The notes beneath the pieces are model-generated. The model saw nothing but the letters and a program-made list of their open reading frames with translations, did no database searches and was not told the DNA's origin. Source: Escherichia coli O127:H6 str. E2348/69 (GTDB lineage: Bacteria; Pseudomonadota; Gammaproteobacteria; Enterobacterales; Enterobacteriaceae). Taken from it: a stretch of DNA of 64,000 nucleotides. The DNA lies in the NCBI RefSeq assembly GCF_000026545.1, contig NC_011601.1; one strand, written 5' to 3'. The position numbers and the translations under genes are program-made. Numbering within the stretch: position 1 is the stretch's first letter; the number at the start of each line of letters is the position of its first letter. Below, piece after piece: positions 28,864 through 44,424 of the stretch.

Positions 28864-29460
28864 ATGGCAGAAAAACAAACTGCGAAAAGGAACCGTCGCG
28901 AGGAAATACTTCAGTCTCTGGCGCTGATGCTGGAATCCAGCGATGGAAGCCAACGTATCACGACGGCAAAACTGGCCGCCTCTGTCGGCGTTTCCGAAGC
29001 GGCACTGTATCGCCACTTCCCCAGTAAGACCCGCATGTTCGATAGCCTGATTGAGTTTATCGAAGATAGCCTGATTACTCGCATCAATCTGATTCTGAAA
29101 GATGAGAAGGACACCACAGCGCGCCTGCGTCTGATCGTGTTGTTGCTCCTCGGTTTTGGTGAGCGTAATCCTGGCCTGACTCGCATCCTCACTGGTCATG
29201 CGCTAATGTTCGAACAGGATCGTCTGCAAGGGCGCATCAACCAGCTGTTCGAGCGTATTGAAGCGCAGTTGCGTCAGGTATTGCGTGAAAAGAGAATGCG
29301 TGAGGGTGAAGGTTACACCACCGATGAAACCCTGCTGGCAAGCCAGTTGCTGGCATTTTGTGAAGGTATGCTGTCACGATTTGTCCGCAGCGAGTTTAAA
29401 TACCGCCCGACGGATGATTTTGACGCCCGCTGGCCGCTAATTGCCGCACAGTTGCAGTAA
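28864..29460 (+). CDS. slmA: Nucleoid occlusion factor SlmA (TetR family)
   Basis: ORF 28822..29460 trimmed to ATG 28864 ([16 protein letters not shown]...), 198 aa. Confidence 0.93.
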
Positions 29461-29503
29461 TTCTCCCAAACGTTCAGGCAGAAACGTCTGCCTGACGCTT
29501 TTC

Positions 29504-30463: not shown

Positions 30464-30469
30464 TCCACT

Positions 30470-30755
30470 CTCCACATCACGGCGACCAAAAGAGGCACCA
30501 ACAGCGGCAATACCCTCAAACTATCCCGAAGGCGCGTAACTGTACTGAGCGCGTCAGCGCGACGTACGCGAAGCGTACTTAAGTACAATGGAGCGACTTT
30601 GGGTATCTGGACAAACTACTGGCGTTAAGTCGGCGACTCGCCGACCCTCCCGGCACAAAAGGCCGGAAACGCTATTGCCACTGCTGGCGAAAGCAGATTA
30701 ACACGATATCTTAAACCGCATCACGCTGCGCACAGTAAAAACCTGCGCAGCGCAT
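30470..30755 (-). ncRNA. Putative retron msr/msd template RNA (boundaries approximate)
   Basis: ~290 bp non-coding region directly upstream of the RT on the same strand, dense in perfect hairpins/palindromes (GTACGCGAAGCGTAC, GTCGGCGACTCGCCGAC, CGCTGCGCA...TGCGCAGCG). Confidence 0.5.
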
Positions 30756-30759
30756 ATTT

Positions 30760-31401
30760 TTAAACGCCGAACTCTTCGCGATAGGCCTTAACCGCCGCCA
30801 GATGTTCCGCCATTTCCGGCTTCTCTTCAAGGTAAGCAATCAGGTCTTTCAGGGTGATGATAGAGATCACTTTGCAGTTGTAATCACGCTCAACTTCCTG
30901 AATCGCCGAAATCTCGCCGCGCCCGCGCTCCTGACGATCGAGCGAAATCAATACGCCAGCAAGCGTCGCGCCATTGGCCTGAATAATTTCCATCGACTCG
31001 CGAATCGCCGTTCCGGCGGTGATCACATCATCCACCAGCATTACGCGTCCTTGTAATGCGCTACCGACCAGATTGCCGCCTTCACCGTGATCTTTTGCTT
31101 CTTTGCGGTTAAAGCAGTACGGCAGGTCCAGGTCATGATGCTCCGCCAGCGCTACAGCGGTAGTAGTGGCAATTGGGATCCCTTTGTAAGCAGGGCCAAA
31201 CAGCAGATCGAACTCAATGCCGGAATCCACTAACGCTTCAGCGTAAAAACGGCCTAACAGTGCCAGATCGCGCCCGGTATTAAACAGCCCGGCGTTGAAG
31301 AAATAGGGGCTTTTGCGCCCGGACTTCAGCGTAAACTCGCCAAACTTTAACACCTGCTTGCTAAGCGCAAATTCAATAAACTGGCGCTGATATGGTTTCA
31401 T
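30760..31401 (-). CDS. pyrE: Orotate phosphoribosyltransferase
   Basis: ORF 30760..31416 trimmed to [11 protein letters not shown] (213 aa); PRPP-binding motif [13 protein letters not shown]. Confidence 0.95.
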
Positions 31402-31466
31402 GCCTTCGCTCCTCATCTTACTTTTCTACAGACAAAAAAAAGGCGACTCATCAGTCGCCTTAAAAA

Positions 31467-32183
31467 TCAGTTTGCCAGCGCCGCCTTCTGCGTCGCTACA
31501 ATGGATTCGATTCCCCCTCGGGCCAGCGCCAACAAGGTGAGTAGCTCTTCATGGGTAAACGGCTCGCCTTCTGCCGTTCCCTGAACTTCAATGATGCGCC
31601 CGTCTTCGGTCATCACCACGTTCATGTCCGTTTCAGCGGCAGAGTCTTCAACGTATTCCAGATCGCAAACCGCTTCGCCGTTCACAATACCAACAGAAAC
31701 CGCGGCTACCATCCCTTTCATCGGGTTGGTTTTCAGCTTGCCATTTTCAACCAGTTTATTCAGGGCATCGGCCAGTGCAACACAAGCACCGGTAATCGAA
31801 GCGGTACGCGTGCCACCATCAGCCTGAAGCACGTCGCAGTCCAGCGTAATGGTGAACTCACCCAGCGCTTTCAAATCTACTGCCGCGCGAAGAGCACGGG
31901 CGATCAGACGCTGGATTTCCATTGTGCGTCCCCCCTGCTTACCTTTCGCCGCTTCACGGGCATTACGGGTATGAGTAGAACGCGGCAGCATACCGTATTC
32001 TGCGGTGATCCAGCCCTGGCCCTGACCTTTCAGGAAGCGCGGCACGCCTTCTTCAATAGAGGCGGTACACAACACTTTGGTATCGCCAAATTCGACCAGC
32101 ACCGAGCCTTCTGCATGTTTTGTATAGTTACGAGTCAGGGTAACGGGACGCACCTGATTATTGCTACGGCCTGCTGGACGCAT
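31467..32183 (-). CDS. rph: Ribonuclease PH (full length)
   Basis: ORF 31467..32207 trimmed to [15 protein letters not shown] (238 aa); C-terminus intact. Confidence 0.95.
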
Positions 32184-32309
32184 ATTGAAATCTCCGGCTT
32201 GAAACAAATGTGGCTGCGCATTATACGGACTTCCGGCGGTTATTCCTATCCTGACAAGGCATCGATGGCTATAATCCTTCCACCTCTCCTTTTATAAACA
32301 GGAACGTCT

Positions 32310-33173
32310 ATGATCCGCAGTATGACCGCCTACGCCCGGCGTGAAATCAAGGGTGAATGGGGGAGCGCAACCTGGGAAATGCGCTCGGTAAACCAGCGTT
32401 ATCTGGAAACTTACTTTCGTCTGCCGGAGCAGTTCCGTAGCCTTGAACCTGTCGTTCGTGAGCGTATTCGTTCTCGCCTGACGCGCGGTAAAGTGGAATG
32501 TACCCTGCGCTATGAGCCCGATGTCAGCGCGCAAGGTGAGCTGATCCTCAACGAAAAACTGGCTAAACAGCTGGTAACTGCCGCGAACTGGGTAAAAATG
32601 CAGAGTGACGAAGGGGAAATCAACCCGGTTGATATTCTCCGCTGGCCAGGCGTGATGGCGGCCCAGGAACAGGATCTCGACGCGATTGCCGCTGAAATTC
32701 TCGCGGCGCTGGATGGTACGCTGGACGACTTTATCATCGCGCGCGAAACCGAAGGTCAGGCGCTGAAAGCATTGATCGAGCAGCGTCTGGAAGGCGTGAC
32801 CGCCGAAGTGGTCAAAGTCCGCGCCCACATGCCGGAAATCCTGCAATGGCAGCGTGAGCGTCTGGTGGCTAAGCTGGAAGACGCCCAGGTGCAACTGGAA
32901 AACAACCGTCTGGAGCAGGAGTTGGTTCTGCTGGCACAACGAATTGACGTTGCCGAAGAGTTGGACCGCCTCGAAGCGCATGTTAAAGAGACCTACAACA
33001 TTCTGAAGAAAAAAGAAGCCGTTGGTCGTCGTCTGGACTTTATGATGCAGGAGTTCAACCGCGAGTCGAACACCCTGGCCTCGAAGTCTATCAATGCCGA
33101 AGTGACTAACTCCGCCATTGAGCTGAAAGTGTTGATCGAGCAGATGCGCGAGCAGATTCAGAATATTGAATGA
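32310..33173 (+). CDS. yicC: YicC family stress-induced protein
   Basis: 287-aa ORF; synteny with rph. Confidence 0.9.
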   Translation: MIRSMTAYARREIKGEWGSATWEMRSVNQRYLETYFRLPEQFRSLEPVVRERIRSRLTRGKVECTLRYEPDVSAQGELILNEKLAKQLVTAANWVKMQSDEGEINPVDILRWPGVMAAQEQDLDAIAAEILAALDGTLDDFIIARETEGQALKALIEQRLEGVTAEVVKVRAHMPEILQWQRERLVAKLEDAQVQLENNRLEQELVLLAQRIDVAEELDRLEAHVKETYNILKKKEAVGRRLDFMMQEFNRESNTLASKSINAEVTNSAIELKVLIEQMREQIQNIE

Positions 33174-33212
33174 TTTTGCATGCTGTCGCATGAAATTGCA
33201 AAAATCCATCAT

Positions 33213-33237
33213 AGCCCGCATTTTGCGGGCTTTTTTA
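33213..33237 (+). terminator. Intrinsic terminator of yicC
   Basis: Hairpin AGCCCGC-ATTTT-GCGGGCT followed by a T-run, 40 nt past the yicC stop. Confidence 0.65.
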
Positions 33238-33281
33238 TTTTCATACTGTCGCATATGATTGCATAGCATCGCGCAAAACAT

Positions 33282-33300
33282 TTGTACCCAAGACTGTACC
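33282..33300. repeat. attL core (left copy of the 19-bp direct repeat)
   Basis: TTGTACCCAAGACTGTACC, identical to 44406..44424; 61 bp upstream of the integrase start. Confidence 0.75.
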
Positions 33301-33360
33301 TTTAATAATTTATCCAATTCATTTTGGGTACAAAATGATAGTCAATATTCAGGTGAAACT

Positions 33361-34620
33361 ATGGCAAAGCTGACAGATATCCAAATCAAGTCATGGATTA
33401 AGGCAGGAGAACGCTTCGAGGGGCGCTCTGACGGCAACGGGCTATACCTTCGCTATCGAGTGGGGGATAAAGTGCCTGTATGGCGTTTTCGATATCAGTT
33501 CGCTGGGAAATCACGGGTAATGCTTATTGGATCTTATAGCGAAATATCCCTTTCCAAAGCACGGGAAATAGCCAAGGAATTATCCGCACGTGTAGCCCTG
33601 GGCTTCGATGTCGCCGGGGAAAAGAAAGCGCGAAAAGCGGCTGCTATAGAAAAGATGGAGCGGGAGAAAAACGCGCTTCGCGTGTCAGAGCTAGCAACCG
33701 AGTATTTCGAACGGCAGATTTTGGGACGCTGGAAACATCCCGATCTTCTGCGCCGGAGAATCGATAAGGATATCAACCCACATATTGGCAACATGAAGAT
33801 AGAGGACGTAAAACCCCGTCATATTGATGCGATGCTACAGAGCGTTGTTGATCGTGGCGCTCCAACCGTAGCTAATGACGTTCTGCGCTGGACTAAACGC
33901 ATATTCGATTATGCTATCAAGCGTCATGCACTGGAATTAAACCCAGCTGGAGCATTTGATCTGTCAGACGCTGGCGGGCAGGAAAGTAGCCGTATGCGCT
34001 GGCTGACCCGTGAAGAACTTATACGTTTTTTCCAAGCTATGCGCACTGCAAAAGGATTCAGCCGCGAGAACGAGCTGACCATGAAGCTAATCCTCTGCCT
34101 GTGTTGTCGCAAAATGGAGCTGTGCGGTGCTCAGTGGGATGAATTCGACCTTGATGAAGCAGTGTGGCATCTACCAGCAGAACGCGTTAAAAACGGCGAC
34201 GCTATTGATATACCACTACCTCCACCTGCGGTTGGTTGGTTGAGAGAGCTTCGCACTATCGCGGGCAGTGGGAGTAAATGGGTTCTCCCCGCGCGGAAGA
34301 TGCAACACCGCATGATTCCCCACATTCAGGAAAGCACACTCCCAGTGGCGCTGGCAAAAGTACGCCGCGAAATGCCAGAAGTACCAAACTTCACAATTCA
34401 CGATTTCAGGCGTACCGCCCGCACCCATTTAGCGGCGTTGGGTGTCGATCCCGTAGTCGCAGAACGTTGCCTGAATCACCGCATTAAAGGCGTTGAGGGT
34501 ATCTACAACCGCCACCAGTACTTTGAAGAACGACGGGCAGCCCTGGAACTGTGGGCGGGGCTTCTGGTTTCGCTTGAACGAGGGGAAAACTACAATGTTA
34601 TTCCTTTATCTAAAATATAA
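33361..34620 (+). CDS. int: Tyrosine-type site-specific integrase (P4-like)
   Basis: ORF 33259..34620 trimmed to MAKLTDIQIKSW (419 aa); catalytic region HDFRRTARTHL and C-terminal Tyr region (GIYNRHQY). Confidence 0.9.
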   Translation: MAKLTDIQIKSWIKAGERFEGRSDGNGLYLRYRVGDKVPVWRFRYQFAGKSRVMLIGSYSEISLSKAREIAKELSARVALGFDVAGEKKARKAAAIEKMEREKNALRVSELATEYFERQILGRWKHPDLLRRRIDKDINPHIGNMKIEDVKPRHIDAMLQSVVDRGAPTVANDVLRWTKRIFDYAIKRHALELNPAGAFDLSDAGGQESSRMRWLTREELIRFFQAMRTAKGFSRENELTMKLILCLCCRKMELCGAQWDEFDLDEAVWHLPAERVKNGDAIDIPLPPPAVGWLRELRTIAGSGSKWVLPARKMQHRMIPHIQESTLPVALAKVRREMPEVPNFTIHDFRRTARTHLAALGVDPVVAERCLNHRIKGVEGIYNRHQYFEERRAALELWAGLLVSLERGENYNVIPLSKI

Positions 34621-34636
34621 AAGTTTTGTTTGAAGG

Positions 34637-34739
34637 TATTCACCCTATTCACCTTTTTAATTAACTTCATGATTTTAAATAATAAAAAAGGGTGAATACT
34701 TACAGTAAAACTAATCACCTTAGTATTCACCTGTTCACC
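34637..34739. repeat. Cluster of five TATTCACC/TGTTCACC 8-mers (putative recombinase arm-type or regulator sites)
   Basis: TATTCACC at 34637, 34646 and 34724; TGTTCACC at 34732; inverted copy GGTGAATA at 34691; directly downstream of int. Confidence 0.5.
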
Positions 34740-34817
34740 TTCTAAAGCTGCTGTGGCTGCTCCCCTTGCCCGAAAACACGCCAGCCACCAGCGTTAAAAA
34801 AAACTACAAAAATCATC

Positions 34818-34839
34818 ATCGTACAGATCTGTACGATGA
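34818..34839. promoter_or_regulatory. Perfect 22-bp palindrome, putative operator
   Basis: CATCGTACAGATCTGTACGATG in the non-coding region between int and the cargo operon. Confidence 0.4.
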
Positions 34840-35123
34840 CGCCAGCACTCACCCTACAAAACAACCTAACTTATTGATTTCAAAAGTAGAGAAAATCTGC
34901 TTTATGCCACTAGCTCGCACCCGTCCCCAAAAAGAAAAAGCCCGCGCTGGAGACGCACGGGCTTTTGGGTACCGATAACCATGTTTGGAATCAACTCATT
35001 GAGTTCTGACCTCAATTTGCATGTTATCACAAGAAAAACACATTGTAATAATTGCAACAACGAATATCATCATTGCATATAATGAAACATAAATATCCGA
35101 TAGAACATACTGAGGTCTGACCG

Positions 35124-35675
35124 ATGCAAGATATTACAAACATCGCAGTGACTGGCGAAGATGGCGTGGTGACGTATGCCGACGGCAGTAAAGAGGAGTT
35201 CCAGTGCAGCGGAACCGTTGCGACCATCATTGCAAGTCTTGCAACGACACTCGAGAAAGAACGCAAAATGCGCATCGCCACCGGCGACCGCCTGCGCCGC
35301 ATGTACACCCGCGACAGTGATATGATTTCCCGCGGTTTGAATGGCACGTCTGCTACTTCCACGGCACCGACAGCAATGAATGCTGAGTTCATGCGTCTGG
35401 TACGTGCCGTAGCGCCGAAATACGATTCAGCACTGCCCGACGCCGACCCGCGCATCGTTGCGCTCGATGTGCTGCGCTACGCCCCTGCTGAGGCGTTCAG
35501 CGCCGTACACCCTACCCCAATGTCAGAAATCCAGCTGGATCAGGCTATCGATATACTCGAGCAGGTTGGCGACTACATGAAAGCAAACAATATCGCTCCG
35601 AAAATAATTTCTACAGGAGACGCAATCCGCAGCATCAATGCTGACAACGCCACCTTCTGGGGCAAAAAACACTAA
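35124..35675 (+). CDS. Hypothetical protein (island cargo, operon gene 1)
   Basis: 183-aa ORF with no recognised domain; first of four co-directional, tightly spaced ORFs. Confidence 0.6.
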   Translation: MQDITNIAVTGEDGVVTYADGSKEEFQCSGTVATIIASLATTLEKERKMRIATGDRLRRMYTRDSDMISRGLNGTSATSTAPTAMNAEFMRLVRAVAPKYDSALPDADPRIVALDVLRYAPAEAFSAVHPTPMSEIQLDQAIDILEQVGDYMKANNIAPKIISTGDAIRSINADNATFWGKKH

Positions 35676-35688
35676 AGAGATATGAAGC

Positions 35689-35877
35689 ATGTCTATCTAT
35701 GACCCGAAATTAGCCGCAGGCAACCCACAGCGCGCCCACCGCCCAATGCTGACCCGTCAGGATCTTGAAACGGCAAAGGCACGCAATAACTTCGATCGCC
35801 AGAGTCGCAACCTGCAGCAACTCAACGAATCAAATGCACGGTTCTGGAGTGAACAGAATGAGAAAGCCAAACGTTAA
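35689..35877 (+). CDS. Hypothetical small protein (operon gene 2)
   Basis: 62-aa ORF 14 bp after gene 1. Confidence 0.45.
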   Translation: MSIYDPKLAAGNPQRAHRPMLTRQDLETAKARNNFDRQSRNLQQLNESNARFWSEQNEKAKR

Positions 35878-36034
35878 GCCGGTCCTGCTGTCCGCCGAGC
35901 AGATGCAGGCCATACGCAACATTCAGGAACGTGAACGCCAGCGCTCCAATCTCGGCGTCGCTCCCACCGTTCACCAGATTGCCCGCGGCCTCATGGCTAA
36001 GGCTCTGGCCTCACTGGCAAGCGAGGGCGCGTAA
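35858..36034 (+). CDS. Hypothetical small protein (operon gene 3; start uncertain)
   Basis: ORF track gives 35765..36034; trimmed to ATG 35858, which has GGAG 9 nt upstream; stop overlaps the next start (TAATG). Confidence 0.35.
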   Translation: MRKPNVKPVLLSAEQMQAIRNIQERERQRSNLGVAPTVHQIARGLMAKALASLASEGA

Positions 36035-36765
36035 TGGGCGCCATTCACCAGATATATGAGCAGGAAATGTTCTATAACTGGATAGGCGATGGTAAACGAT
36101 GTGTAGCATTCCACGAAGCGGGCCATGCAGTAGCCGCATGGCTTATTCGCTTAGATATGCAGGTTATCGCCATTATGGATGAATCCGGCTACGTTGCTGG
36201 CGAACATGTACATGAAGCCCAGTGTTTGGGCGTTGTTAAACACGGCATAATCCACAGCCACGATCTCAGGCGTTTGCGGGAGAGTAAATCTGGTGTAGTT
36301 GGGCACGATGGCAAAGTTATCCCTTTCATACGCTACTACGCGGAAGGTATAAAGCGCGATGCAACAAAGGCCGCTTTTGTAGCCCTCGCTGGACCAGTAA
36401 GCGAAGCCATTTACGAAAATAACGAAATTTTCAATATAAAGTATTCACTCCCTCACCGCTATGACATGGCTAACGTAAATGACATGCTCGATTTAATATG
36501 TGCCACGGATAAGCGAATTAACAGGAAGTTAATGCTTTCTAAACTTGTTGAAAAGACCAAATTCCTCATGACTCAATACTGGCCGGAAGTAGGAAAAATA
36601 GCGCATTTGCTTGAGCGGGATAACATTGTTAATGGCCGCGATGTTAGCTCGCTAATCGGCCTCAACGTCATTGACCGGGCAACGCCATTTTTGGTATCTG
36701 ACTTGAGCAGTACATTTGCTCATCTCCCGTACTCGTCCCTGCCTCCGAATGAATTAGCAACTTGA
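36034..36765 (+). CDS. FtsH-like (M41-type) zinc metallopeptidase-domain protein lacking ATPase and membrane modules
   Basis: 243 aa; HEAGH zinc-binding motif (AFHEAGHAVAAW) and downstream LAGPVSEAIY segment resembling the FtsH protease domain; no Walker motifs. Confidence 0.65.
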   Translation: MGAIHQIYEQEMFYNWIGDGKRCVAFHEAGHAVAAWLIRLDMQVIAIMDESGYVAGEHVHEAQCLGVVKHGIIHSHDLRRLRESKSGVVGHDGKVIPFIRYYAEGIKRDATKAAFVALAGPVSEAIYENNEIFNIKYSLPHRYDMANVNDMLDLICATDKRINRKLMLSKLVEKTKFLMTQYWPEVGKIAHLLERDNIVNGRDVSSLIGLNVIDRATPFLVSDLSSTFAHLPYSSLPPNELAT

Positions 36766-36776
36766 AGACAGTAAAG

Positions 36777-36803
36777 TAGCCATGCATTTAACACGCATGG
36801 CTA
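36777..36803. terminator. Hairpin between convergent cargo operons (putative bidirectional terminator)
   Basis: 9-bp perfect stem TAGCCATGC / GCATGGCTA with a 9-nt loop, between the stops at 36765 (+) and 36813 (-). Confidence 0.45.
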
Positions 36804-36812
36804 TGTGAACAT

Positions 36813-38036
36813 TTAAGAATTAGAGCGCTTAGGCGATCGCGTAAATTGCACTAAAGCCCCTTTATGATCGTTAGCCTGCACATCACGATGCTCAACCAAC
36901 ATAGATTTTAATTTTGCCAGATGCACAACAGCAGCCTTCTTGCCAGTCAGGTACCCCTCGGGCAAACCAGCAATCATTTCCACATCAATAGCAGATAAAC
37001 CTGCGAATGCAGCAAGCCGTTCAACTGAAATGATTCCAGACGATGCCAGCAATTCAATAGTACGTTTCAACAAACGTGGTTTTTCAGGCTCACGATAATC
37101 ATCTCCCGGCTCTGATTTCGCTCCCCAACGTGCTGAACGACGCTTATAAAGATTTTGTTTCTCTTCTTCCGTAATAATATGCAGCACATGTAAACGCATG
37201 ATACTTGCCGCAACGGAAATACCATAGCGTTGTTTAATTAAAAGCAAGCTATCTAATGTTACCGGGGTCCTAATTTCTTCGGCAAATGTCTCAGCAGGAA
37301 GCAGCAGTGCTCCCGCAAATTTATGAGCCTGACTTTCCTTCAGCTTATAACGTTCGGCTTCGAGTTCGTTGCCAACATAGCGGTGAAGGATCAGATGACC
37401 AATTTCGTGAGCAAGGTCAAATCTGCTACGAAAAGCATTACCTTTATCTGAAGAGAGGAGAACAAAAGGAACACCTAAAGTCTCACTCCAGGCAGAAAGC
37501 CCTTCAATCTGCGCAACGCCTGTTTCTTCTCTAATAACGATAATACCATTACTCTCTGCGGCTAAAGCAAGATCCGGTATTTCCTTTGTACCAAGATTCC
37601 AAAGAGCACGGCACTCATTAGCAGCGTCTTCAATATCTGCATCACTAATTTCATCAATGTTTGTAAAGCTACGACGCGGTAGTTTTAGCTCCGGCAGATC
37701 TACAAACTCAGTCAGCTTAGTAACTAACTCATTAGCCCAATGGATTCGAGTTTCTAACATTGCTCGTGCAGCTACATGAGCTGATGCATTGCTTCTGAAC
37801 AGAGGCTTTGACATCCCCTTCAACAGAGGGCGCGTAAACCATTCAGGTGTAACATTTACGACAGTGGCCAGACGTTCTAAAGCCTCAGACTCTGGAGCCT
37901 GTTGACCGGAACGCCATTTGCTAATGGTTGCTGGTGATACACCCACCATAGTAGCTAATTGAGTTTGTGATAGCCGCCGGGCGGCTAGTACCTGTGCTAA
38001 CCTGCCCGGTTGAAATTCGGCGACGCCTCGGCTCAT
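36813..38036 (-). CDS. Fused HTH-XRE / ImmA-IrrE-type (M78-like) zinc metallopeptidase protein
   Basis: 407 aa; N-terminal XRE helix-turn-helix (LSQTQLATMVGVSPATISKWRSG); central HExxH motif (LAHEIGHLILH); start overlaps the upstream gene stop by 4 bp. Confidence 0.8.
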   Translation of the reverse strand: MSRGVAEFQPGRLAQVLAARRLSQTQLATMVGVSPATISKWRSGQQAPESEALERLATVVNVTPEWFTRPLLKGMSKPLFRSNASAHVAARAMLETRIHWANELVTKLTEFVDLPELKLPRRSFTNIDEISDADIEDAANECRALWNLGTKEIPDLALAAESNGIIVIREETGVAQIEGLSAWSETLGVPFVLLSSDKGNAFRSRFDLAHEIGHLILHRYVGNELEAERYKLKESQAHKFAGALLLPAETFAEEIRTPVTLDSLLLIKQRYGISVAASIMRLHVLHIITEEEKQNLYKRRSARWGAKSEPGDDYREPEKPRLLKRTIELLASSGIISVERLAAFAGLSAIDVEMIAGLPEGYLTGKKAAVVHLAKLKSMLVEHRDVQANDHKGALVQFTRSPKRSNS

Positions 38037-38680
38037 ACATTATCTTCCTCGGTTCCATCTTTTCTGATAATGCCCCTTTTGAGCCCAGGGAATGCATTAT
38101 CTTCTTGGGACGGAACTACATCATATCGGGTTAAAAAAAGTTCAAGTGGCTCATGAAAAACCCAGCGCTTCCCATCAGAACTTGGTACAACAAGCTCTAT
38201 AGACATCGGAGCTTCAGGCTGAATCTGCAACGAACCGGAAAAACGGCATACTACGAACAGTGTAGCTTTTGGCACATCAGAACCATCGGAGAATAAATCC
38301 GGTTGCACCATTTTTTCCACAAACACGTTCTCAGAAATGAGTTCTTGCTTACGTTTGCTACGGAATAATCTCTTCCACTGGTTATCATTGTAGCTTTCAC
38401 GAACAATCGTGAATATACCACTATGGCCTTCTACAATACGGTTACCACGCAGCTTTCCAGGATTACAACCGTTGGCCTCAAACACCTCATAAATAGTTTC
38501 ATTCAGGTTTAAATGACGATCATAACCAAGCGCGGTCGATCTGTGATCTAGCTTCTTCTTTTGAGCATAATCGTAAGAACGCTTTGATGCCGCGTAAATC
38601 GCGTCAGAAAGGGCCATGAAGAGTTGTTTTGAAACATTCTGAACGATGAGATCTGCCACTTTGGATTTTTTCACGACCAT
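38033..38680 (-). CDS. Hypothetical protein, co-operonic with the HTH-peptidase gene
   Basis: 215-aa ORF; AGGAA just upstream of the ATG; no recognised domain. Confidence 0.65.
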   Translation of the reverse strand: MVVKKSKVADLIVQNVSKQLFMALSDAIYAASKRSYDYAQKKKLDHRSTALGYDRHLNLNETIYEVFEANGCNPGKLRGNRIVEGHSGIFTIVRESYNDNQWKRLFRSKRKQELISENVFVEKMVQPDLFSDGSDVPKATLFVVCRFSGSLQIQPEAPMSIELVVPSSDGKRWVFHEPLELFLTRYDVVPSQEDNAFPGLKRGIIRKDGTEEDNV

Positions 38681-39209
38681 TTCCTATCACTGTCACTGAT
38701 AGCCGTGATTTTATATCAGTATTTTTTCGTGTGTCCATAACGCAATCAATTATTTTTTCCTTTGTCAGCAAGAATTATATAAAAAGCACTATCATGACAG
38801 GATTTGGGCCACTAACCTTTCACAGACTCTTGAAGTCCTAGAAAAAAGCAATGGCACAAGGTGTCCTTGCCGGGAGAAAAATCATCTGGCTACCAGCAAC
38901 CTTATAGATTCCAGATCAACGTAATATCAAAGTAAAACGTCCATTTCCGGTACCATATTTGGTCATTACGACGGGGGAAACTTATACCCACTGCTGCCCC
39001 ATCGTCAGCGCCGACAGGGACCTATGCCGCAAGGTATAAGGCAAAATTGGCATTTTCGCTATTCCCCCTGCCCGTATTTTTTGGCTTACTGGAATTTCTC
39101 TATCTAACACAATGAACTTGAGGCTATTCCGACAGGGAGAAAAGCGATCTACGCCTGACCGCCTGCCTCAGCAATCATCCAGGCAAGTACGTGTGTAAGG
39201 CTAACGCGA

Positions 39210-39890
39210 ATGAGTGATTTTTATTCCCCTCTACCAAGCTATGATCTTGTCCGGGCAGCGGAGATGCTGACTGATAAGGGGGCAAATTGTACCGGTAACG
39301 ATTTATTGGAACTATGGAACCAAGGCGTTATCGAGTTGTGTTTTTCTCTGCCGGACTACATTGCTTGTGAAGATGTTAATTTTCCCGGGCATGGTCACAG
39401 CATTTTGTTATCCGTGGATCCGATTAGCTTCAACCTTTTCTGGCTAAATGTTGATTACCCACCGAACTTAAATGCTAACTTTTCTGTGAAAGAATATGGC
39501 TCAGATAGTGAATTCCATGAGCAGTCCCTATGGATACCAACAGAACCGCACTACAACACTCACCATGATAACGGGGAAGGGCTTTGCGAAGCGTTAAGGA
39601 ATACTTATGGCCGGGAAAATTTACGAATACCAGGTGTCGAATTGCAAAAGGTTTGGCGCTTTTTGATCGGTCAGCCTTATGAAAAAAAGCCAACGCCTGA
39701 GCGTATCACCGCTAAGCAATGCCGCTTTATCGTCGCATTACTCAGATCGTATAACCTGACTGACGATGATTTTAAGGGGAGCATTAGGGACCTGAGAATT
39801 AAGATATCTAACCGGATCCCTTCAATCGGTGATCCTGAAATCGATGATAATACCCTTACTGACTGGCTGAAGAAGGGAGGGGTTCGGTAG
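39210..39890 (+). CDS. Hypothetical protein (island cargo, orphan)
   Basis: 226-aa ORF with no recognised domain; divergent from the 38680 operon. Confidence 0.6.
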   Translation: MSDFYSPLPSYDLVRAAEMLTDKGANCTGNDLLELWNQGVIELCFSLPDYIACEDVNFPGHGHSILLSVDPISFNLFWLNVDYPPNLNANFSVKEYGSDSEFHEQSLWIPTEPHYNTHHDNGEGLCEALRNTYGRENLRIPGVELQKVWRFLIGQPYEKKPTPERITAKQCRFIVALLRSYNLTDDDFKGSIRDLRIKISNRIPSIGDPEIDDNTLTDWLKKGGVR

Positions 39891-39992
39891 CTGAGTTTTC
39901 ATAACTCCGATGAGTTTTCAATAACTCCCCCACCCGTAACCACCTACCCCGTAGCCTTGCGATTACCTTCTCACTCAATAGCAGGTAATCGC

Positions 39993-40205
39993 ATGAAATC
40001 GCAAACTTTCACCTTTCCTACCAATGGCAACGCACGAGCCAAACAAGTGGCGCACTATCTTGGAGTGCATATCAGCACCGTATGGCGCTATGCAAAACGT
40101 CCTGATTTTCCAAAACCCCACCAGTTAACCGACGGCGTGACCGTCTTTGACGCCGCAGCTATTCGCCAATGGAACAAGCAAAAAACCGGGGGTGAGAATG
40201 CTTAA
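39993..40205 (+). CDS. alpA: AlpA-family phage transcriptional regulator / excisionase-like protein
   Basis: ORF 39957..40205 trimmed to MKSQTFTF (70 aa); HTH segment AKQVAHYLGVHISTVWRYAKRPDFPKP typical of AlpA/Vis. Confidence 0.7.
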   Translation: MKSQTFTFPTNGNARAKQVAHYLGVHISTVWRYAKRPDFPKPHQLTDGVTVFDAAAIRQWNKQKTGGENA

Positions 40206-40259
40206 CGCGACCGTGAGCACACCCTGCACGACAGCCGTTCGATCTCCATTGTTGGCGGG

Positions 40260-40454
40260 TCAGGCTTTCGGCTCAATACCCAGCCGCTGGAGTTCTTTGC
40301 GCCCCAAGGTTTTCATCCAATTAGCTAAACTCATACCTGCATCTCGTGCGGCGGCCTCGAATTGCTCTTTCAATTCTGGGGCGATCCTCACTTGGAAAGC
40401 TGGTGCCTTTCCCCTGCCTTTGGGCTGTTTATCACGCTGTATTACTGTTGACAT
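40260..40454 (-). CDS. Putative ribbon-helix-helix DNA-binding protein
   Basis: ORF 40260..40547 trimmed to MSTVIQRD (64 aa); beta-strand plus two-helix pattern (FQVRIAPELKEQFEAAARDAGMSLANWM). Confidence 0.45.
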   Translation of the reverse strand: MSTVIQRDKQPKGRGKAPAFQVRIAPELKEQFEAAARDAGMSLANWMKTLGRKELQRLGIEPKA

Positions 40455-40588
40455 GTATGTACCTATTAAACTAAGATTCAAATCAATAGGTACGCACCTT
40501 AACATGTTAAGGTCAGAAAAGACAACGCCCCGTAGTGCTCGCAACACATACGGGGCGTCTAACCAACAACGTTACGGAGACTAACGCT

Positions 40589-40789
40589 ATGGCTAAGCCG
40601 CAGTGTACCCAAACTCACCCCAAATATCAGTATCGTTTTATGGCGCTCGATCGCGCTGACCGCCAGGCAAAACCCTGCAAAATCATTGTTGAGGCCACCA
40701 GCGAGCATGAAGCACGTAAGGTGTTGGCACCTCACTACATCCTGTCACTGTCCGCCGTTTTGCCAGTTCAGGAGGTGAGCCATGTTTAA
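40589..40789 (+). CDS. Hypothetical protein (replication-module operon)
   Basis: ORF 40535..40789 trimmed to ATG 40589, which follows GGAGA; 66 aa. Confidence 0.4.
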   Translation: MAKPQCTQTHPKYQYRFMALDRADRQAKPCKIIVEATSEHEARKVLAPHYILSLSAVLPVQEVSHV

Positions 40790-40976
40790 TGTCATTGTCA
40801 CGGTCACCTATCACTTTTCGGGAACGATCCGTCGTTTTGCTATTCCGGAACGTTTCAATAATCGTGAGCTCGCAGAGAAAGCGGCGCAGCAGTTAACCCA
40901 TACCAGCTATCTGGATGATGGAGTGAGCAGAATTGTGACCCACGCGGCGGAAGTAGTGGAGGTGCGCCATGTATGA
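40782..40976 (+). CDS. Hypothetical protein (replication-module operon)
   Basis: 64-aa ORF whose start overlaps the upstream stop. Confidence 0.4.
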   Translation: MFNVIVTVTYHFSGTIRRFAIPERFNNRELAEKAAQQLTHTSYLDDGVSRIVTHAAEVVEVRHV

Positions 40977-41157
40977 CGCCTACCTGAACCCAAAGGACGC
41001 ACTCCGTCCGATCGCCGTTGCACTCGAGGCTGCGCAGTTTATCGCGCTTGACCCGGAGAATACCGATTTAGCCCATGAGCTGATCGCCTGGGCACTTGAA
41101 ACAGCCGCGCGTGCCTCAGCTGCGCAACGTAACACCCCGGAGGTGGACAATGCTTAA
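40969..41157 (+). CDS. Hypothetical protein (replication-module operon)
   Basis: 62-aa ORF whose start overlaps the upstream stop. Confidence 0.4.
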   Translation: MYDAYLNPKDALRPIAVALEAAQFIALDPENTDLAHELIAWALETAARASAAQRNTPEVDNA

Positions 41158-41458
41158 TCTCAATACATGGAATCTTTTCACGCTGCCGCTGAACGGTGGC
41201 GCAGCTGAGACAGCGCCGGACGATCTGCGTCTGCTGGCCGCTGTGGGGGACGAGGCTCGCAACAACTACCTGCGCGGTGTAAGCGCCATCGGCAATCTGA
41301 TCTTCTGGGCATGTGATAACCCCAACTACACCGACCATCAAGCTGACCTGCCAGCGCTGGGCGCATTCCTGAAACATACCGCTGATATGGCGCGCGCTGC
41401 CGAATTCATGGCAGGACATCTGGACTCACTGGCTGACGGCAAAGAGGGAGGCAAATAA
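41150..41458 (+). CDS. Hypothetical protein (replication-module operon)
   Basis: ORF 41096..41458 trimmed to ATG 41150, which follows GGAGGTGG; 102 aa. Confidence 0.45.
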   Translation: MLNLNTWNLFTLPLNGGAAETAPDDLRLLAAVGDEARNNYLRGVSAIGNLIFWACDNPNYTDHQADLPALGAFLKHTADMARAAEFMAGHLDSLADGKEGGK

Positions 41459-41679
41459 TGCCACGCAAACATCGCTCATCAAGCAACCTGATCAAATTAA
41501 TGGAACGCCAGAAAGGTATAGGGCGCGACGATATCCAGATCGCAGATAATCGCCCTACATTCATGCCGTACGAGCCGAACGGAACCTACGCTACAAACCG
41601 CCATACCCGCCGTATGCTACGCAAGCTCCACGGCATCCAGGCAAAAAGAATGTGTGATCTGAAAGGAGGTCAGAAATGA
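41458..41679 (+). CDS. Hypothetical protein (replication-module operon)
   Basis: 73-aa ORF; stop overlaps the primase start. Confidence 0.45.
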   Translation: MPRKHRSSSNLIKLMERQKGIGRDDIQIADNRPTFMPYEPNGTYATNRHTRRMLRKLHGIQAKRMCDLKGGQK

Positions 41680-44090
41680 GTGGATTCGATCACCTGATGG
41701 AGCAGGGGCAGAAACGCACCCCTGCTCGTTTTACTGCAAATAGCTTTTCTGACCTGTGCAACGCTATTCTATCGCATCGTGTGCAAATTTCCATCACACA
41801 GGAAATGACGGATGAAGAACGGCGCAAAGAAAAGCAGAAACTGTACTGGTTCTCGGCAACTACCCAGCAGGACGGGCAGCGACGTAAACCCGAAAACATG
41901 GCACCGTGTGCTTTCGGTATGCTGGACATTGACGGCAGCACTCCCGGTGCAATCACAGCACTTGTACAGGTGTTCCGGCGATACTCAATGCTGGTGTACC
42001 AGACGGCCAGCTATACGACGGATGAACCTCGTCTGCGTATTGTGTGCGAGCTTTCCCGAGCGGTTGAATCTGACTACCGCCGAGCGACAGGCGAATCCAT
42101 AGAAACTTTGTTGATGCAGGAGGCTGGATTCTCATTCGCCAGCCTGGCGGATAAGAAAGCACGCTGGGAGAACGGCAGCGATTATGTTGTCTTTGACCGC
42201 AATGTATACGGCGCTCAAAGCTATTGCTACTGTCCACACACTGGAGCGAAAGCCCAGAATTACGCGGGCGCGGTAATCGACGTAGGGGCGTTACCGGAAC
42301 CCGCCCAGCCACCAGCGAAGGCGGCCAAAAGCAAGGCAAAGAAACAGCGCCAGCGTGACGCCGCGGCGGTAATAGATGCTGATTTTGACGATCTGAGCGC
42401 CGGACCGGATAACTTCCTTATCGCCGACCTGCGCAGCGCACTCTGGTTTCCCTCCATGCTGCAAAAGGCATGGGACAATGGGGCGTGGATTGAGCAGGGC
42501 TACCGCCTTGCATCTCTCAAAGGCACCGATTTTGAGGACGACGCGCGGCAACTGTGGGTCGAGTGGTCATTGACCGCAGCGGATGGCTGGCCTGATGAAG
42601 AACTTGATGAAGTCGCGGCACAACGCTGGAATGGTCTCGCCCCTGACAAAACCAGCTATAAAGCTATTTTTACTGATGCTCAGGCGCAGGGGTGGAATAA
42701 TCCGGGCAAATGGCGAGCAAAGGCCGCGTACATTGAGAAAATGGCCCCCAGCACACGCGGTGAACTGCTGGCGCAATATTACGGCAACGTATGCCTGAAA
42801 GCTGATGGCAACATGGTTTATCACTATACCGGGCAGGTGTGGGAGCACATCGCCGATGCCGAGTTGCGCCGCCAGCTTTCGCAGATTTTCAAAGATAACG
42901 GGGTCCCCTTTACACCGTACGAGGTTAAAAGCGCGATTGAGGCTATGGGAATGCTTCTGCCTTTAATGGGAGAAACTCCTCGTAACCTGATTGGCTTTGC
43001 CAACGGCGTTTATGATCTCGAGGCGCAGCGATTCCGCCCCCACTGCCCAGACGATTGGCTGACCAGCCATAACGGCGTTGAATACACGCAGCCGGTTAAA
43101 GGCGAAACCCTGAAAAACAATGCCCCAAACTTCTGGCGCTGGCTGCATCATTCCGCAGGGGGCGACTTCGACAAAATGGAGAGAATCAAAGCCGCTCTGT
43201 ATATGGTGCTGGCAAACCGCTACGACTGGCAACTGTTCATCGAGGTTACCGGTGCTGGTGGCAGTGGTAAAAGCGTGTTCACGGGTATTGCACGTATGCT
43301 GACGGGCGAACTACACGCCACCAGCGGCACAATGGAGGACATGGACACCGCGCGCGAACGCGCATCTTTTGTCGGCAAAAGCCTGATCACCCTACCCGAC
43401 CAAGCAACATATACGGGTTCCGGGCCGGGTATCAAGGCTATAACGGGCGGCGACGTGGTAAGGATCGACCCAAAGCACGAAAAGCCATTCCATACGGTTA
43501 TTCGCGCCGTTGTCATCGCAACAAACAACGAACCTATGCGTTTCACCGAACGACAAGGCGGGATATCGCGGCGCCGGGTTATTTTCCCGTTTAACCATGA
43601 AGTGCCGGAGGCGGAACGTGATCCCCATCTGCTCGATAAAATTAAAGCCGAACTGCCGGTAATCGTCCGTGGTCTGCTGATTGACTTCGAACAGCCAGGC
43701 AAAGCCAAATCGCTACTTATCGCGCAGCGTGATTCAGCGGAAGCGCTGCAGGTGAAGAACGATAACGACCCGATGTATGGCTTTTGCTCTTACCTGCTAG
43801 GTTTGCCGAATCCCGAGGGCATGTACATGGGCGATGGGCGCATGGCGCGAGAGCCACGCATCTACCTCTATCATGCTTATCTGGCCTATCTGGAAGCCTA
43901 CGGTTATCAGAGAACCCCCACCCTACCGAAGTTCAGCGGAGATTTACGGGACACGCTCAAAGCCTTTGGTATTACTCTGGACAGTAAAAAGAGTAAAAAG
44001 GGCAAAAGATATAACGTCAATTTGTCTGACAGGGCACAAGAATGGCTGGGAGAAGACGAACTCTCAGCTGTGCCCGACACATTGCAGTAA
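41676..44090 (+). CDS. P4 alpha-like primase-helicase
   Basis: 804 aa; Walker A GAGGSGKS in the C-terminal half (SF3/D5-type helicase); last gene of a translationally coupled operon. Confidence 0.85.
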   Translation: MSGFDHLMEQGQKRTPARFTANSFSDLCNAILSHRVQISITQEMTDEERRKEKQKLYWFSATTQQDGQRRKPENMAPCAFGMLDIDGSTPGAITALVQVFRRYSMLVYQTASYTTDEPRLRIVCELSRAVESDYRRATGESIETLLMQEAGFSFASLADKKARWENGSDYVVFDRNVYGAQSYCYCPHTGAKAQNYAGAVIDVGALPEPAQPPAKAAKSKAKKQRQRDAAAVIDADFDDLSAGPDNFLIADLRSALWFPSMLQKAWDNGAWIEQGYRLASLKGTDFEDDARQLWVEWSLTAADGWPDEELDEVAAQRWNGLAPDKTSYKAIFTDAQAQGWNNPGKWRAKAAYIEKMAPSTRGELLAQYYGNVCLKADGNMVYHYTGQVWEHIADAELRRQLSQIFKDNGVPFTPYEVKSAIEAMGMLLPLMGETPRNLIGFANGVYDLEAQRFRPHCPDDWLTSHNGVEYTQPVKGETLKNNAPNFWRWLHHSAGGDFDKMERIKAALYMVLANRYDWQLFIEVTGAGGSGKSVFTGIARMLTGELHATSGTMEDMDTARERASFVGKSLITLPDQATYTGSGPGIKAITGGDVVRIDPKHEKPFHTVIRAVVIATNNEPMRFTERQGGISRRRVIFPFNHEVPEAERDPHLLDKIKAELPVIVRGLLIDFEQPGKAKSLLIAQRDSAEALQVKNDNDPMYGFCSYLLGLPNPEGMYMGDGRMAREPRIYLYHAYLAYLEAYGYQRTPTLPKFSGDLRDTLKAFGITLDSKKSKKGKRYNVNLSDRAQEWLGEDELSAVPDTLQ

Positions 44091-44108
44091 CTTGTAAAAA
44101 ATCACCAA

Positions 44109-44405: not shown

Positions 44406-44424
44406 TTGTACCCAAGACTGTACC
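44406..44424. repeat. attR core (right copy of the 19-bp direct repeat)
   Basis: TTGTACCCAAGACTGTACC, identical to 33282..33300. Confidence 0.75.

What the first reader, a model, noticed from the sequence alone, without database searches (positions are those of the whole stretch)
35124..36765. Four-gene cargo operon ending in a stand-alone FtsH-like (M41) peptidase-domain protein
Four co-directional ORFs of 183, 62, ~58 and 243 aa are tightly packed; the last start overlaps the preceding stop (TAATG). The 243-aa product has the HEAGH zinc motif and following segments that resemble the C-terminal protease domain of FtsH, but lacks the AAA+ ATPase and membrane anchor. The three upstream proteins have no recognisable domains. 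The operon sits where P4-type satellites carry variable defence cargo, next to the integrase. I do not recognise an ATPase-less FtsH-type protease with three small partners as a named system.
Basis: partly seen in the sequence, partly recalled or inferred. Interest (0 to 1): 0.75.

Follow-up and report, generated by a model that had tools for sequence, protein, structure and literature searches.

The report
Satellite-borne FtsH-like protease gene block
The four genes are real and end in a stand-alone FtsH-type zinc protease, but they are a recurring, uncharacterised module of a family of phage-parasitising islands (PICI satellites), not a one-off defence cargo, and what the protease cuts is unknown.

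Summary
Observation confirmed. Four co-directional, tightly packed ORFs (183, 62, 58 and 243 aa) lie at 35124-36765 of E. coli E2348/69, and all are under purifying selection.

The 243-aa product is a cytosolic M41 (FtsH-type) protease domain. HEAGH and the third-ligand Asp are intact, and it has no AAA+ module or membrane anchor. Profile, AlphaFold and Foldseek results agree on this.

- The element is an 11.1-kb PICI-type satellite, not a P4-type one. It has 19-bp att repeats, int, int-alpA RNA, AlpA and a P4-family primase.
- In about 20 related loci (E. coli, Salmonella, Hafnia, Klebsiella, Rahnella, viral contigs) the block sits directly after the primase, at the start of the PICI "late zone" and among captured phage morphogenesis genes. 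Only in the yicC-dinD lineage has it moved next to int, beside an RmrTA swap site.
- The block is modular. ORF1-ORF2 (shared C-terminal NxxNxxFW motif), ORF3 and M41 each occur apart, and M41 is often followed by an exported or lipoprotein gene that E2348/69 has lost.
- Nothing matches PADLOC, PHROGs or sequenced phages or plasmids.

Most likely this is a satellite life-cycle or helper-interference module built around an ATP-independent protease. The substrate is unknown. Moderately interesting and uncharacterised.

The parts
33282..33300 (.). attL: 19-bp direct repeat TTGTACCCAAGACTGTACC (left end of the 11.1-kb island between yicC and dinD)
   Evidence: Perfect repeat of 44406-44424, spacing 11,124 bp. 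The island is flanked by yicC and dinD.
33361..34620 (+). Tyrosine integrase of the satellite
   Evidence: RefSeq annotation. phrog_1 integrase, E=3.7e-66.
34936..34966 (.). GC-rich hairpin (bidirectional terminator-like) that marks the left edge of the transposable block. The same hairpin follows the primase or perC in other satellites.
   Evidence: Terminator scan. blastn shows that block homology starts at 34930/34935, with the hairpin conserved in L004, L008 and L058.
35024..35070 (+). Two overlapping sigma-70-like promoter matches upstream of ORF1 (weak evidence)
   Evidence: Consensus scan: 4 sites found against 3.3 expected, so not significant on its own.
35124..35675 (+). ORF1, 183 aa. 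Variable N-terminal beta/long-helix part and a conserved C-terminal helical domain ending in ...NADNATFWGKKH. No known domain.
35689..35877 (+). ORF2, 62 aa, charged. Carries the same NxxNxxFW motif near its C-terminus. Always follows ORF1.
   Evidence: The motif is found only in ORF1 and ORF2 across all fetched loci, apart from one antisense chance hit. Homologues occur in Salmonella, Hafnia, Klebsiella and Rahnella. dN/dS 0.26.
35858..36034 (+). ORF3, 58 aa. Its strand-helix-helix pattern (VKPVLL...) suggests a ribbon-helix-helix protein, which is an inference. Its stop overlaps the M41 start.
   Evidence: 27 homologues. Alignment A5. No Pfam or PDB support, and hhalign against CopG and Arc is not significant. 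dN/dS 0.10-0.14.
36034..36765 (+). Stand-alone M41 (FtsH-type) zinc metallopeptidase domain, 243 aa. H27-E28-x-x-H31 and D144. An insertion of about 40 aa that extends the beta-sheet. The last ~23 residues are strain-specific: homology to the 223-aa relatives ends at 36693.
36777..36803 (.). Hairpin between the convergent M41 and RmrA genes
   Evidence: Terminator-like site.
36813..38680 (-). RmrA (HTH + ImmA/IrrE-type peptidase, 407 aa) and RmrT (215 aa). A neighbouring, separate toxin-antitoxin/defence-candidate pair. A different RmrTA subtype occupies this position in the sister island L033.
   Evidence: PADLOC RmrA E=3.5e-125 and RmrT E=8e-16. L033 variants.
39117..39184 (+). int-alpA RNA motif (RF02996). 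Marks the native int-to-alpA junction, so the four-gene block and RmrTA lie between int and this motif.
   Evidence: Rfam gathering-threshold hit, 39.4 bits.
39993..40205 (+). AlpA-type excisionase/regulator
   Evidence: phrog_66 excisionase/transcriptional regulator. RefSeq HTH regulator.
41676..44090 (+). P4-family DNA primase (replication zone). In most relatives the ORF1...M41 block starts right after this gene.
   Evidence: phrog_864 DNA primase, E=8e-104. Contexts.
44406..44424 (.). attR (second copy of the 19-bp repeat)

Best explanation
The block (window 34935-36693) is a recurrent late-zone module of Gram-negative PICI-type phage satellites. In the E2348/69, O45:H2 and O55:H7 lineage of a yicC-dinD island it has been relocated to the int-alpA interval.

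**Shown:**
- Four real genes, transcriptionally insulated by an upstream hairpin.
- The last gene encodes a soluble M41 (FtsH-type) zinc protease domain with the catalytic HEAGH...D intact and no unfoldase.

**Inferred:**
- Lacking an AAA+ motor, the enzyme can only cut unfolded or flexible polypeptides, or targets handed to it.
- Its usual position is between the primase and captured head/neck/tail genes and DUF2280/DUF5681 genes.
- It is absent from phages themselves.
- From these three points, it most likely acts during the satellite's helper-dependent cycle. It would process or destroy a helper or satellite late protein (interference with, or redirection of, helper morphogenesis or packaging).
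- ORF3 would be a translationally coupled small partner (adaptor or DNA-binding regulator).
- ORF1-ORF2 would be a separate, conserved pair whose shared C-terminal FW motif marks a common docking or cleavage site.
For: **M41 identity.** Profile versus PDB FtsH, E=3e-24, with the HEAGH, LAGxxAE and third-ligand Asp columns aligned. AF2 model pLDDT 82. Foldseek hits are exclusively FtsH, AFG3L2 and YME1. D144, H27, E28 and H31 are near-invariant in 123 sequences.

**Satellite identity.** att repeats, int, AlpA and primase, int-alpA RNA.

**Conserved position after the primase:**
- E. coli EC02 and ECONIH5.
- Salmonella.
- Hafnia.
- Klebsiella and Rahnella.
- IMG/VR contigs.

**Co-divergence.** ORF1 and M41 identities to the window copies are 72/77, 62/62, 47/47, 46/45 and 43/23 %.

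**Neighbours.** Phage morphogenesis genes: Neck1/tail-completion between ORF3 and M41, then DUF2280/DUF5681, cement and major capsid downstream. PICI zone model and the late zone: PMC10111431. Morphogenesis genes lie between pri-rep and terS: PMC10085698.

**Other points.**
- No copies in 50,697 phage or 72,556 plasmid records.
- Purifying selection on all four ORFs.
- The FW motif is specific to ORF1 and ORF2.
Against: - No experiment or substrate is known.
- The module is present in only 57 of 5,426 complete E. coli genomes, so it is accessory within PICIs, not core.
- The E2348/69 island has no capsid or packaging genes on which the protease could act in cis.
- M41 also occurs without ORF1/ORF2 (Dickeya, ETEC, L029-31). 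ORF1/ORF2 occur without M41 (Klebsiella L009, L011).
- In this strain the block does sit in an accessory-gene interval beside RmrTA.
- Distant stand-alone M41 proteins occur in very different contexts, for example next to trigger factor and DnaE in jumbo phages. Context therefore gives no single function for the fold.
- I recall DUF2280 and DUF5681 as small-terminase candidates, but PHROGs lists them as unknown.
Confidence: 0.42

Rival explanations
1. Anti-phage defence or abortive-infection cargo. The protease would be held inactive by the small proteins and, on infection, would cleave an essential host or phage protein (Lit-like logic), protecting the population.
For: - In E2348/69 and L033 the block lies in the int-alpA accessory interval, next to RmrTA variants that swap. 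PICIs are known to carry defence genes (PMC10085698).
- The genes are tightly coupled small genes plus an effector-like enzyme.
- The module is patchily distributed, in about 1% of E. coli genomes.
- M41 and ORF1-3 have discordant dS, showing cassette-like exchange.
Against: - No PADLOC model hits any of the four proteins at E<=1, and no literature was found.
- The usual location is the late zone after the primase, among morphogenesis genes, not a defence hotspot.
- The block co-diverges with the satellite backbone rather than alternating with unrelated systems at one site.
- The components are separable.
Confidence: 0.2
2. Regulatory switch. ORF3 would be a small ribbon-helix-helix repressor of the late zone or of the block itself. 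M41 would be its dedicated anti-repressor protease, analogous to ImmR/ImmA or XRE/COG2856 pairs, firing on a helper-derived signal.
For: - The ORF3 stop overlaps the M41 start.
- The ORF3+M41 pair exists on its own in about 30 E. coli genomes.
- ORF3 has a beta-alpha-alpha pattern with invariant VKPVL and a G-x-x-P-T turn.
- Repressor-plus-metalloprotease pairs are common in mobile elements; RmrA next door combines both.
Against: - The RHH assignment has no statistical support.
- Klebsiella, Rahnella, Dickeya and L029-31 M41 genes have no ORF3.
- A Serratia ORF3 homologue precedes an unrelated 109-aa gene and a tape-measure gene.
- M41 is not an M78/COG2856 peptidase.
Confidence: 0.15
3. Mimic or modulator of host FtsH. 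The free protease domain would either join or poison FtsH hexamers, or duplicate FtsH's specificity for flexible tails (lambda CII, CIII and Xis; sigma32; LpxC). This would bias the helper's lysis-lysogeny decision or host physiology.
For: - The closest solved relatives are FtsH-family protease domains, including the C-terminal helices that build the hexameric protease ring.
- From established lambda biology (my own knowledge), FtsH controls CII, CIII and Xis stability.
Against: - Only 13-15% identity to FtsH in structural alignments, and a 40-aa insertion.
- Conservation of the catalytic residues argues against a pure decoy.
- Oligomer state could not be tested with these tools.
- The helpers implied by the embedded copies are E217-like myoviruses, not lambdoid phages.
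Confidence: 0.08

Closest known systems
FtsH / AFG3L2 / YME1 (MEROPS family M41, AAA+ membrane proteases)
   Same: - HEAGH zinc motif, LAGxxAE segment and third-ligand Asp.
- Overall protease-domain fold, including the C-terminal helices.
   Different: - No transmembrane anchor and no AAA+ unfoldase.
- Only 243 aa, with an insertion of about 40 aa after the HEAGH helix.
- Encoded by a phage satellite.
- The single sequence is below Pfam and NCBIfam thresholds.
Uncharacterised stand-alone M41-domain proteins of phages and mobile elements (e.g. UniProt A0A6J5RJ76, 'Peptidase M41 domain-containing protein', uncultured Caudovirales)
   Same: Same domain-only architecture of 150-250 aa. There are 281 clusters at 50% identity in the 1.84-billion-protein library. 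The best viral structural match is such a protein.
   Different: - Most lack the insertion.
- Their contexts differ: between TerL and portal; beside trigger factor and DnaE in jumbo phages; beside serine recombinase and ParB.
- None has a described function.
Late-zone / morphogenesis-interference genes of Gram-negative PICIs (Rpp of EcCICFT073; four-zone model of Tommasini et al. 2023)
   Same: Same kind of element (int, AlpA, P4-family primase). Same usual position immediately downstream of the primase.
   Different: - No sequence similarity to Rpp: RppC is in the PDB, and ORF1-3 give no PDB hit.
- No protease has been described among PICI interference factors.
- In E2348/69 the block is displaced to the int side.
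ImmA/IrrE (M78, COG2856) anti-repressor proteases with their HTH repressors; the adjacent RmrA is of this type
   Same: A small putative DNA-binding protein, translationally coupled to an HExxH metalloprotease, in a mobile element.
   Different: - Different peptidase family (M41, not M78).
- The partner is not an XRE HTH.
- The pairing is not universal.
Lit protease of prophage e14 (HExxH abortive-infection protease cleaving EF-Tu)
   Same: A mobile-element-encoded, ATP-independent zinc protease. This is the conceptual model for the defence reading.
   Different: No sequence or profile similarity detected (no PADLOC hit). Lit is a single gene activated by the T4 Gol peptide (my own knowledge).

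Membership tests
Peptidase family M41 (FtsH-type protease domain) | HExxH zinc-binding motif on the active-site helix | tested here: met
   HEAGH at residues 27-31. H27, E28 and H31 are at least 90% conserved in 123 family members.
Peptidase family M41 (FtsH-type protease domain) | Third zinc ligand: Asp in the helix after the LAGxxAE segment | tested here: met
   D144 is near-invariant. The corresponding profile column aligns with the Asp of T. thermophilus FtsH '...GAENDFRQAT'. That this Asp ligates zinc comes from published FtsH structures (my own knowledge). The geometry in the model was not measured.
Peptidase family M41 (FtsH-type protease domain) | M41 protease-domain fold | tested here: met
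   AF2 pLDDT 82, pTM 0.82. The top 46 Foldseek PDB hits are all FtsH, AFG3L2, YME1 or FtsHi, with probability 1.0 and TM(query) about 0.5.
Peptidase family M41 (FtsH-type protease domain) | Curated profile thresholds (Pfam PF01434, TIGR01241) | tested here: not met
   - Pfam i-E 0.0015 over residues 21-44 only.
- TIGR01241 scores 15.5 bits against a cutoff of 600.
- 74 of 123 family members match PF01434 at E<=0.001.
FtsH proper (ATP-dependent zinc metalloprotease) | N-terminal transmembrane segments and AAA+ ATPase module | tested here: not met
   The protein is 243 aa and the match starts at residue ~20. There is no AAA hit in Pfam or NCBIfam. It is therefore not an FtsH orthologue.
P4-type satellite | psu, delta and sid capsid-size and late-control genes | tested here: not met
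   The 11.1-kb island contains only int, the block, RmrTA, a 226-aa orphan, alpA, an icd-like gene, small ORFs and the primase. The orphan and small ORFs give no PHROG hit to such genes.
Gram-negative PICI (phage-inducible chromosomal island) | Inward-pointing integrase, AlpA regulator, primase-replicase, ~10-15 kb, att repeats, no structural or lysis genes | tested here: met
   The organisation matches the zones of PMC10111431.
Gram-negative PICI (phage-inducible chromosomal island) | Induction and packaging by a helper phage | not testable with these tools
   Needs experiments. No helper has been identified for the E2348/69 island.
Known anti-phage defence systems (PADLOC-DB v2) | Profile match of at least one component | tested here: not met
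   No families at E<=1 for any of the four proteins. The neighbours hit RmrA and RmrT strongly.
Ribbon-helix-helix (CopG/Arc/MetJ) DNA-binding proteins (for ORF3) | Beta-alpha-alpha fold with an N-terminal DNA-reading strand | tested here: inconclusive
   The pattern in alignment A5 is compatible. However, Pfam gives nothing, the PDB profile gives nothing, and hhalign against CopG and Arc gives probability <1%. No structure-prediction quota was left.
ImmA/IrrE (M78/COG2856) anti-repressor protease pairs | M78 peptidase domain adjacent to or fused with an XRE HTH repressor | tested here: not met
   The M41 protein has no M78 hit. The real member of that family here is RmrA, at 36813-38036.

The most novel reading that the evidence does not exclude
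A new class of satellite weapon. An ATP-independent FtsH-type protease would recognise a short C-terminal tag-like motif (NxxNxxFW, carried by ORF1 and ORF2). Triggered by the helper phage, it would cleave a helper morphogenesis or regulatory protein, or its own partners to release an effector. This would be the first proteolytic interference or immunity mechanism described for PICI satellites, and the first function for the widespread stand-alone M41 family.
Probability: 0.2. Interest if true: 0.7.

Novelty: new variant of a known kind. Interest (0 to 1): 0.45.

Why it matters
**Unstudied protease family.** FtsH-type protease domains are known only as parts of AAA+ machines. A broad family of domain-only versions exists in phages and satellites: at least 281 clusters at 50% identity. 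It has no described role.

**A tractable entry point.** The family appears here as a conserved, purifying-selected module of PICI satellites in pathogenic E. coli, Salmonella, Klebsiella and Hafnia. That makes it accessible to experiment.

**Link to satellite biology.** Known satellite interference factors act by binding (Rpp, Ppi, Sid, CpmB), not by proteolysis. Finding the substrate would show how a motor-less M41 domain selects targets. It could also add a new mechanism to satellite-helper conflict.

**If it has no such role.** The result still corrects the annotation: 'hypothetical' or 'XRE family regulator' becomes a defined PICI late-zone block.

Tried and rejected
- **Defence-system identity.** PADLOC gave nothing for the four proteins. 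Three full-text literature searches for M41 or FtsH-like terms with anti-phage or prophage terms found nothing relevant. The one 'FtsH-like' mention concerns IetA.
- **Phage structural or lysis module.** tblastn of M41 and ORF1 found no match in 50,697 phage genomes. M41 found none in 72,556 plasmids. PHROGs has no family for them.
- **ORF1 as Rpp.** Rejected: Rpp is a 144-153-aa wHTH protein with PDB entries, and ORF1 has no PDB sequence hit.
- **ORF3 as RHH.** Not demonstrable.
- **Mimicry of a helper protein.** The FW motif is absent from all flanking prophage late genes in the fetched loci. TerL, portal and scaffold were mostly outside those loci.
- **Structured RNA upstream of ORF1.** Only sub-threshold Rfam hits, caused by the terminator hairpin.
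- **Lipoprotein downstream of M41 in relatives.** No Pfam, PHROG or PADLOC hit.
- **Tommasini et al. supplements.** No M41 or FtsH entry.
- **Promoter scan.** Not above shuffled expectation.
Full report
**1. What is in the sequence**

The window is E. coli O127:H6 E2348/69 (100% identity). The ORF list and raw sequence show four + strand ORFs:
- 35124-35675 (183 aa)
- 35689-35877 (62 aa)
- 35858-36034 (58 aa; ATG preceded by GGAG)
- 36034-36765 (243 aa)

Spacings are 13 nt, a 20-nt overlap, and a TAATG stop/start overlap. RefSeq annotates exactly these four CDSs as hypothetical proteins. All four have homologues. dN/dS against the Salmonella, Hafnia and other E. coli copies is 0.08-0.26, so they are genuine genes.

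**2. The 243-aa protein**

On its own the sequence matches Pfam M41 and TIGR01241 only around HEAGH. It matches human AFG3L2 over residues 20-210 at E=3e-4.

An exhaustive profile search found 281 clusters of short (about 150-250 aa) relatives. No full-length FtsH appeared among the best 150. A 123-sequence alignment keeps H27, E28, H31, G120, D144 and W183 at 90% or more. Its profile hits FtsH structures at E=3e-24. HEAGH, LAGxxAE and the Asp of the FtsH 'ND' motif fall in the same columns.

The AlphaFold model is confident (pLDDT 82, pTM 0.82). Foldseek returns only FtsH, AFG3L2, YME1 and FtsHi protease domains. The best viral hit is a 214-aa 'Peptidase M41 domain' protein.

This is an M41 protease domain without a membrane anchor or AAA+ motor. 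It carries an insertion of about 40 residues after the active-site helix.

The E2348/69 copy differs from its 223-aa relatives only in a strain-specific C-terminal tail. Nucleotide homology stops at 36693.

**3. The element**

The island is bounded by a perfect 19-bp direct repeat (33282-33300 and 44406-44424) between yicC and dinD. It encodes:
- an integrase;
- the four genes;
- a convergent RmrA/RmrT pair (PADLOC E=3.5e-125 and 8e-16);
- an int-alpA RNA motif;
- a 226-aa orphan;
- an AlpA-type regulator, an Icd-like gene and small ORFs;
- a P4-family primase.

There is no psu, delta or sid. This is the int-AlpA-(Bro)-replication-late organisation of Gram-negative PICIs (PMC10111431), not a P4-type satellite.

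**4. Where the block lives elsewhere**

In every other lineage I could retrieve, the block lies directly downstream of the primase.

| Source | Arrangement |
|---|---|
| E. coli EC02 | primase-ProQ-PerC-ORF1-ORF2-ORF3-M41-lipoprotein |
| Salmonella | primase-ORF1-ORF2-ORF3-M41-DUF2280-cement-major capsid-neck-sheath-tube |
| Hafnia | same, followed by DUF5681 and a split capsid gene, i.e. a helper-embedded PICI |
| E. coli ECONIH5 and IMG/VR contigs | a Neck1/tail-completion gene between ORF3 and a 43%-identical M41 |
| Klebsiella, Rahnella | primase-ORF1-ORF2-M41 at 23-47% identity, no ORF3 |
| A metagenomic contig | ORF1-like, 52 aa, Neck1-like, 57 aa, M41 |

ORF1 and M41 identities to the window copies fall together: 72/77, 62/62, 47/47, 46/45 and 43/23 %. 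This behaviour fits a lineage-specific backbone or late-zone module. It does not fit a hotspot in which unrelated systems alternate.

According to PMC10085698 and PMC11773190, the region after the primase is where PICIs encode morphogenesis, packaging and interference functions.

blastn shows the shared unit starts at a conserved GC-rich hairpin (34936-34966). That hairpin follows the primase or perC elsewhere. The unit ends at 36693.

In the yicC-dinD lineage (E2348/69, and O45:H2 FWSEC0003 at 99% identity) this unit sits between int and the int-alpA RNA. In FWSEC0003 it is followed by a 352-aa lipoprotein gene and a different RmrTA subtype. E2348/69 has lost the lipoprotein gene and the last codons of M41 to an RmrTA exchange.

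**5. The block is modular**
- The ORF1-ORF2 pair occurs without M41 in Klebsiella L009 and L011.
- ORF3+M41 occurs without ORF1-2 in about 30 E. coli genomes.
- An ORF3 homologue in Serratia precedes an unrelated 109-aa gene and a tape-measure gene.
- M41 alone follows SSB or a ProQ-like gene in Dickeya and in other PICI-like contigs.
- Between E2348/69 and EC02, ORF1-3 are almost identical (dS 0.008-0.03) while M41 has dS 0.21. This places a recombination breakpoint at the ORF3/M41 junction.
- M41 is frequently followed by an exported protein: a 352-368-aa lipoprotein or a 112-116-aa signal-peptide protein.

In 5,426 complete E. coli genomes, 57 carry part of the block and 20 carry all four genes.

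**6. The small proteins**

None has a Pfam, NCBIfam, PHROG, PADLOC or PDB match.

*Shared motif.* ORF1 and ORF2 share a C-terminal motif, [NQ]xxNxx[FY]W. Across roughly 0.5 Mb of fetched loci, in all six frames, it occurs only in these two proteins, apart from one antisense chance hit.

*ORF3.* It has an invariant VKPVL strand followed by two helices. This is compatible with a ribbon-helix-helix protein, but I could not support that statistically.

**7. Mechanism**

*Shown:* a soluble M41 protease with an intact catalytic site, no unfoldase, conserved in satellites, absent from sequenced phages and plasmids.

*Inferred:* without a motor it must act on flexible or unfolded substrates, or on tails presented by partners. 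Its habitual place is among satellite late genes. This makes a role in the helper-dependent phase the best-supported reading (confidence about 0.4): processing or destroying a helper or satellite late protein.

*Rivals:*
- A defence/abortive-infection cargo (about 0.2). This is favoured by the local context in this strain, but not by the comparative data or PADLOC.
- An ORF3-M41 repressor/anti-repressor switch (about 0.15).
- An FtsH mimic or modulator (about 0.08).

Distant stand-alone M41 proteins sit in heterogeneous phage contexts: between TerL and portal, and next to trigger factor and DnaE in jumbo phages. The fold alone does not fix the function.

**8. Comparison and novelty**

The protein passes the M41 tests (motif, third ligand, fold). 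It fails the FtsH test (no AAA+ or TM) and the curated profile thresholds. The island passes the PICI tests and fails the P4 test. No defence family matches.

NCBI already labels many orthologues 'peptidase M41 family protein'. I found no paper describing this module or any stand-alone M41 protein.

I rate it a new variant of known kinds: an M41 protease without its motor, serving as a PICI late-zone module. It is of moderate interest (0.45). It is a clean, testable lead rather than a demonstrated new system.

Noticed in passing
window 29504-30475 (- strand): A retron reverse transcriptase of the Ec107 type sits alone between slmA and pyrE (PADLOC RT_Ec107-like, E=6.5e-131). As I recall, this is the classical Ec107 insertion site. 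The Rfam gathering scan of 28000-46000 did not report an msr RNA.
   Followed up: partly
window 36813-38680 (- strand): RmrA (HTH + ImmA/IrrE-type peptidase) and RmrT pair, convergent with the M41 gene. The sister island in O45:H2 (L033 14983-16824) has a different RmrTA subtype at the same place. This is therefore a local swap site, and the swap removed the lipoprotein gene and the M41 3' end in E2348/69.
   Followed up: partly
window 39117-39184 (+): int-alpA RNA motif (RF02996, 39.4 bits). It lies 4.5 kb from int because the four-gene block and RmrTA are inserted between them. It is followed by a 226-aa orphan (39210-39890) with no hit in PHROGs or PADLOC.
   Followed up: partly
window 33282-33300 and 44406-44424: Perfect 19-bp direct repeats, TTGTACCCAAGACTGTACC. 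They delimit an 11.1-kb PICI-type island in the yicC-dinD intergenic region.
   Followed up: yes
L011 1-2322, L019/L020 9036-10392, L004 8789-16705: Related satellites in Klebsiella, Hafnia and Salmonella are embedded in, or fused to, late genes of an E217/XM1-like myovirus prophage. I saw a split major-capsid gene, cement, sheath, tube and tape measure. These are helper-embedded or 'elongated late zone' PICIs of the kind described in PMC10111431.
   Followed up: partly
L033 13782-14840; L008 13785-14837; L002 8795-9853; L031 8638-9744; L014 3807-4145; L029/L030 8603-8956: M41 genes in satellites are often followed by an exported protein: a 352-368-aa lipoprotein (LTGC lipobox) or a 112-116-aa signal-peptide protein. 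None matches any family. They might be a functional partner or a separate exclusion gene.
   Followed up: partly
L044, L048, L054, L056 (around 2000-8200 of each locus): In jumbo-phage contigs (150-359 kb), a 222-227-aa stand-alone M41 protein lies in a conserved row: trigger-factor-like gene, two small genes, M41, DnaE-like polymerase. This looks like a phage protein-quality-control cluster.
   Followed up: no
L043 282-2279; L047 143-4166; L049 1720-5950: A 172-aa stand-alone M41 gene sits between a terminase-large-like gene and a portal-like gene in small viral contigs (gene roles judged by size and order only).
   Followed up: no
L034 3247-4528: Two stand-alone M41 genes in tandem on one viral contig.
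   Followed up: no
window 35124-36034 versus 36034-36693, compared with L008: Synonymous divergence jumps from 0.008-0.03 (ORF1-3) to 0.21 (M41) between E2348/69 and strain EC02. This places a recombination breakpoint exactly at the overlapping ORF3/M41 junction.
   Followed up: yes
L012 8518-8724: The Rahnella ORF2 homologue carries the FW motif twice (…NKKFWEKKNEDSDKFWTERN). The metagenomic ORF1 homologue (L014 1503-2120) has an ORF2-like tail fused to it. This suggests that ORF2 and the ORF1 C-terminus are evolutionarily interchangeable.
   Followed up: partly
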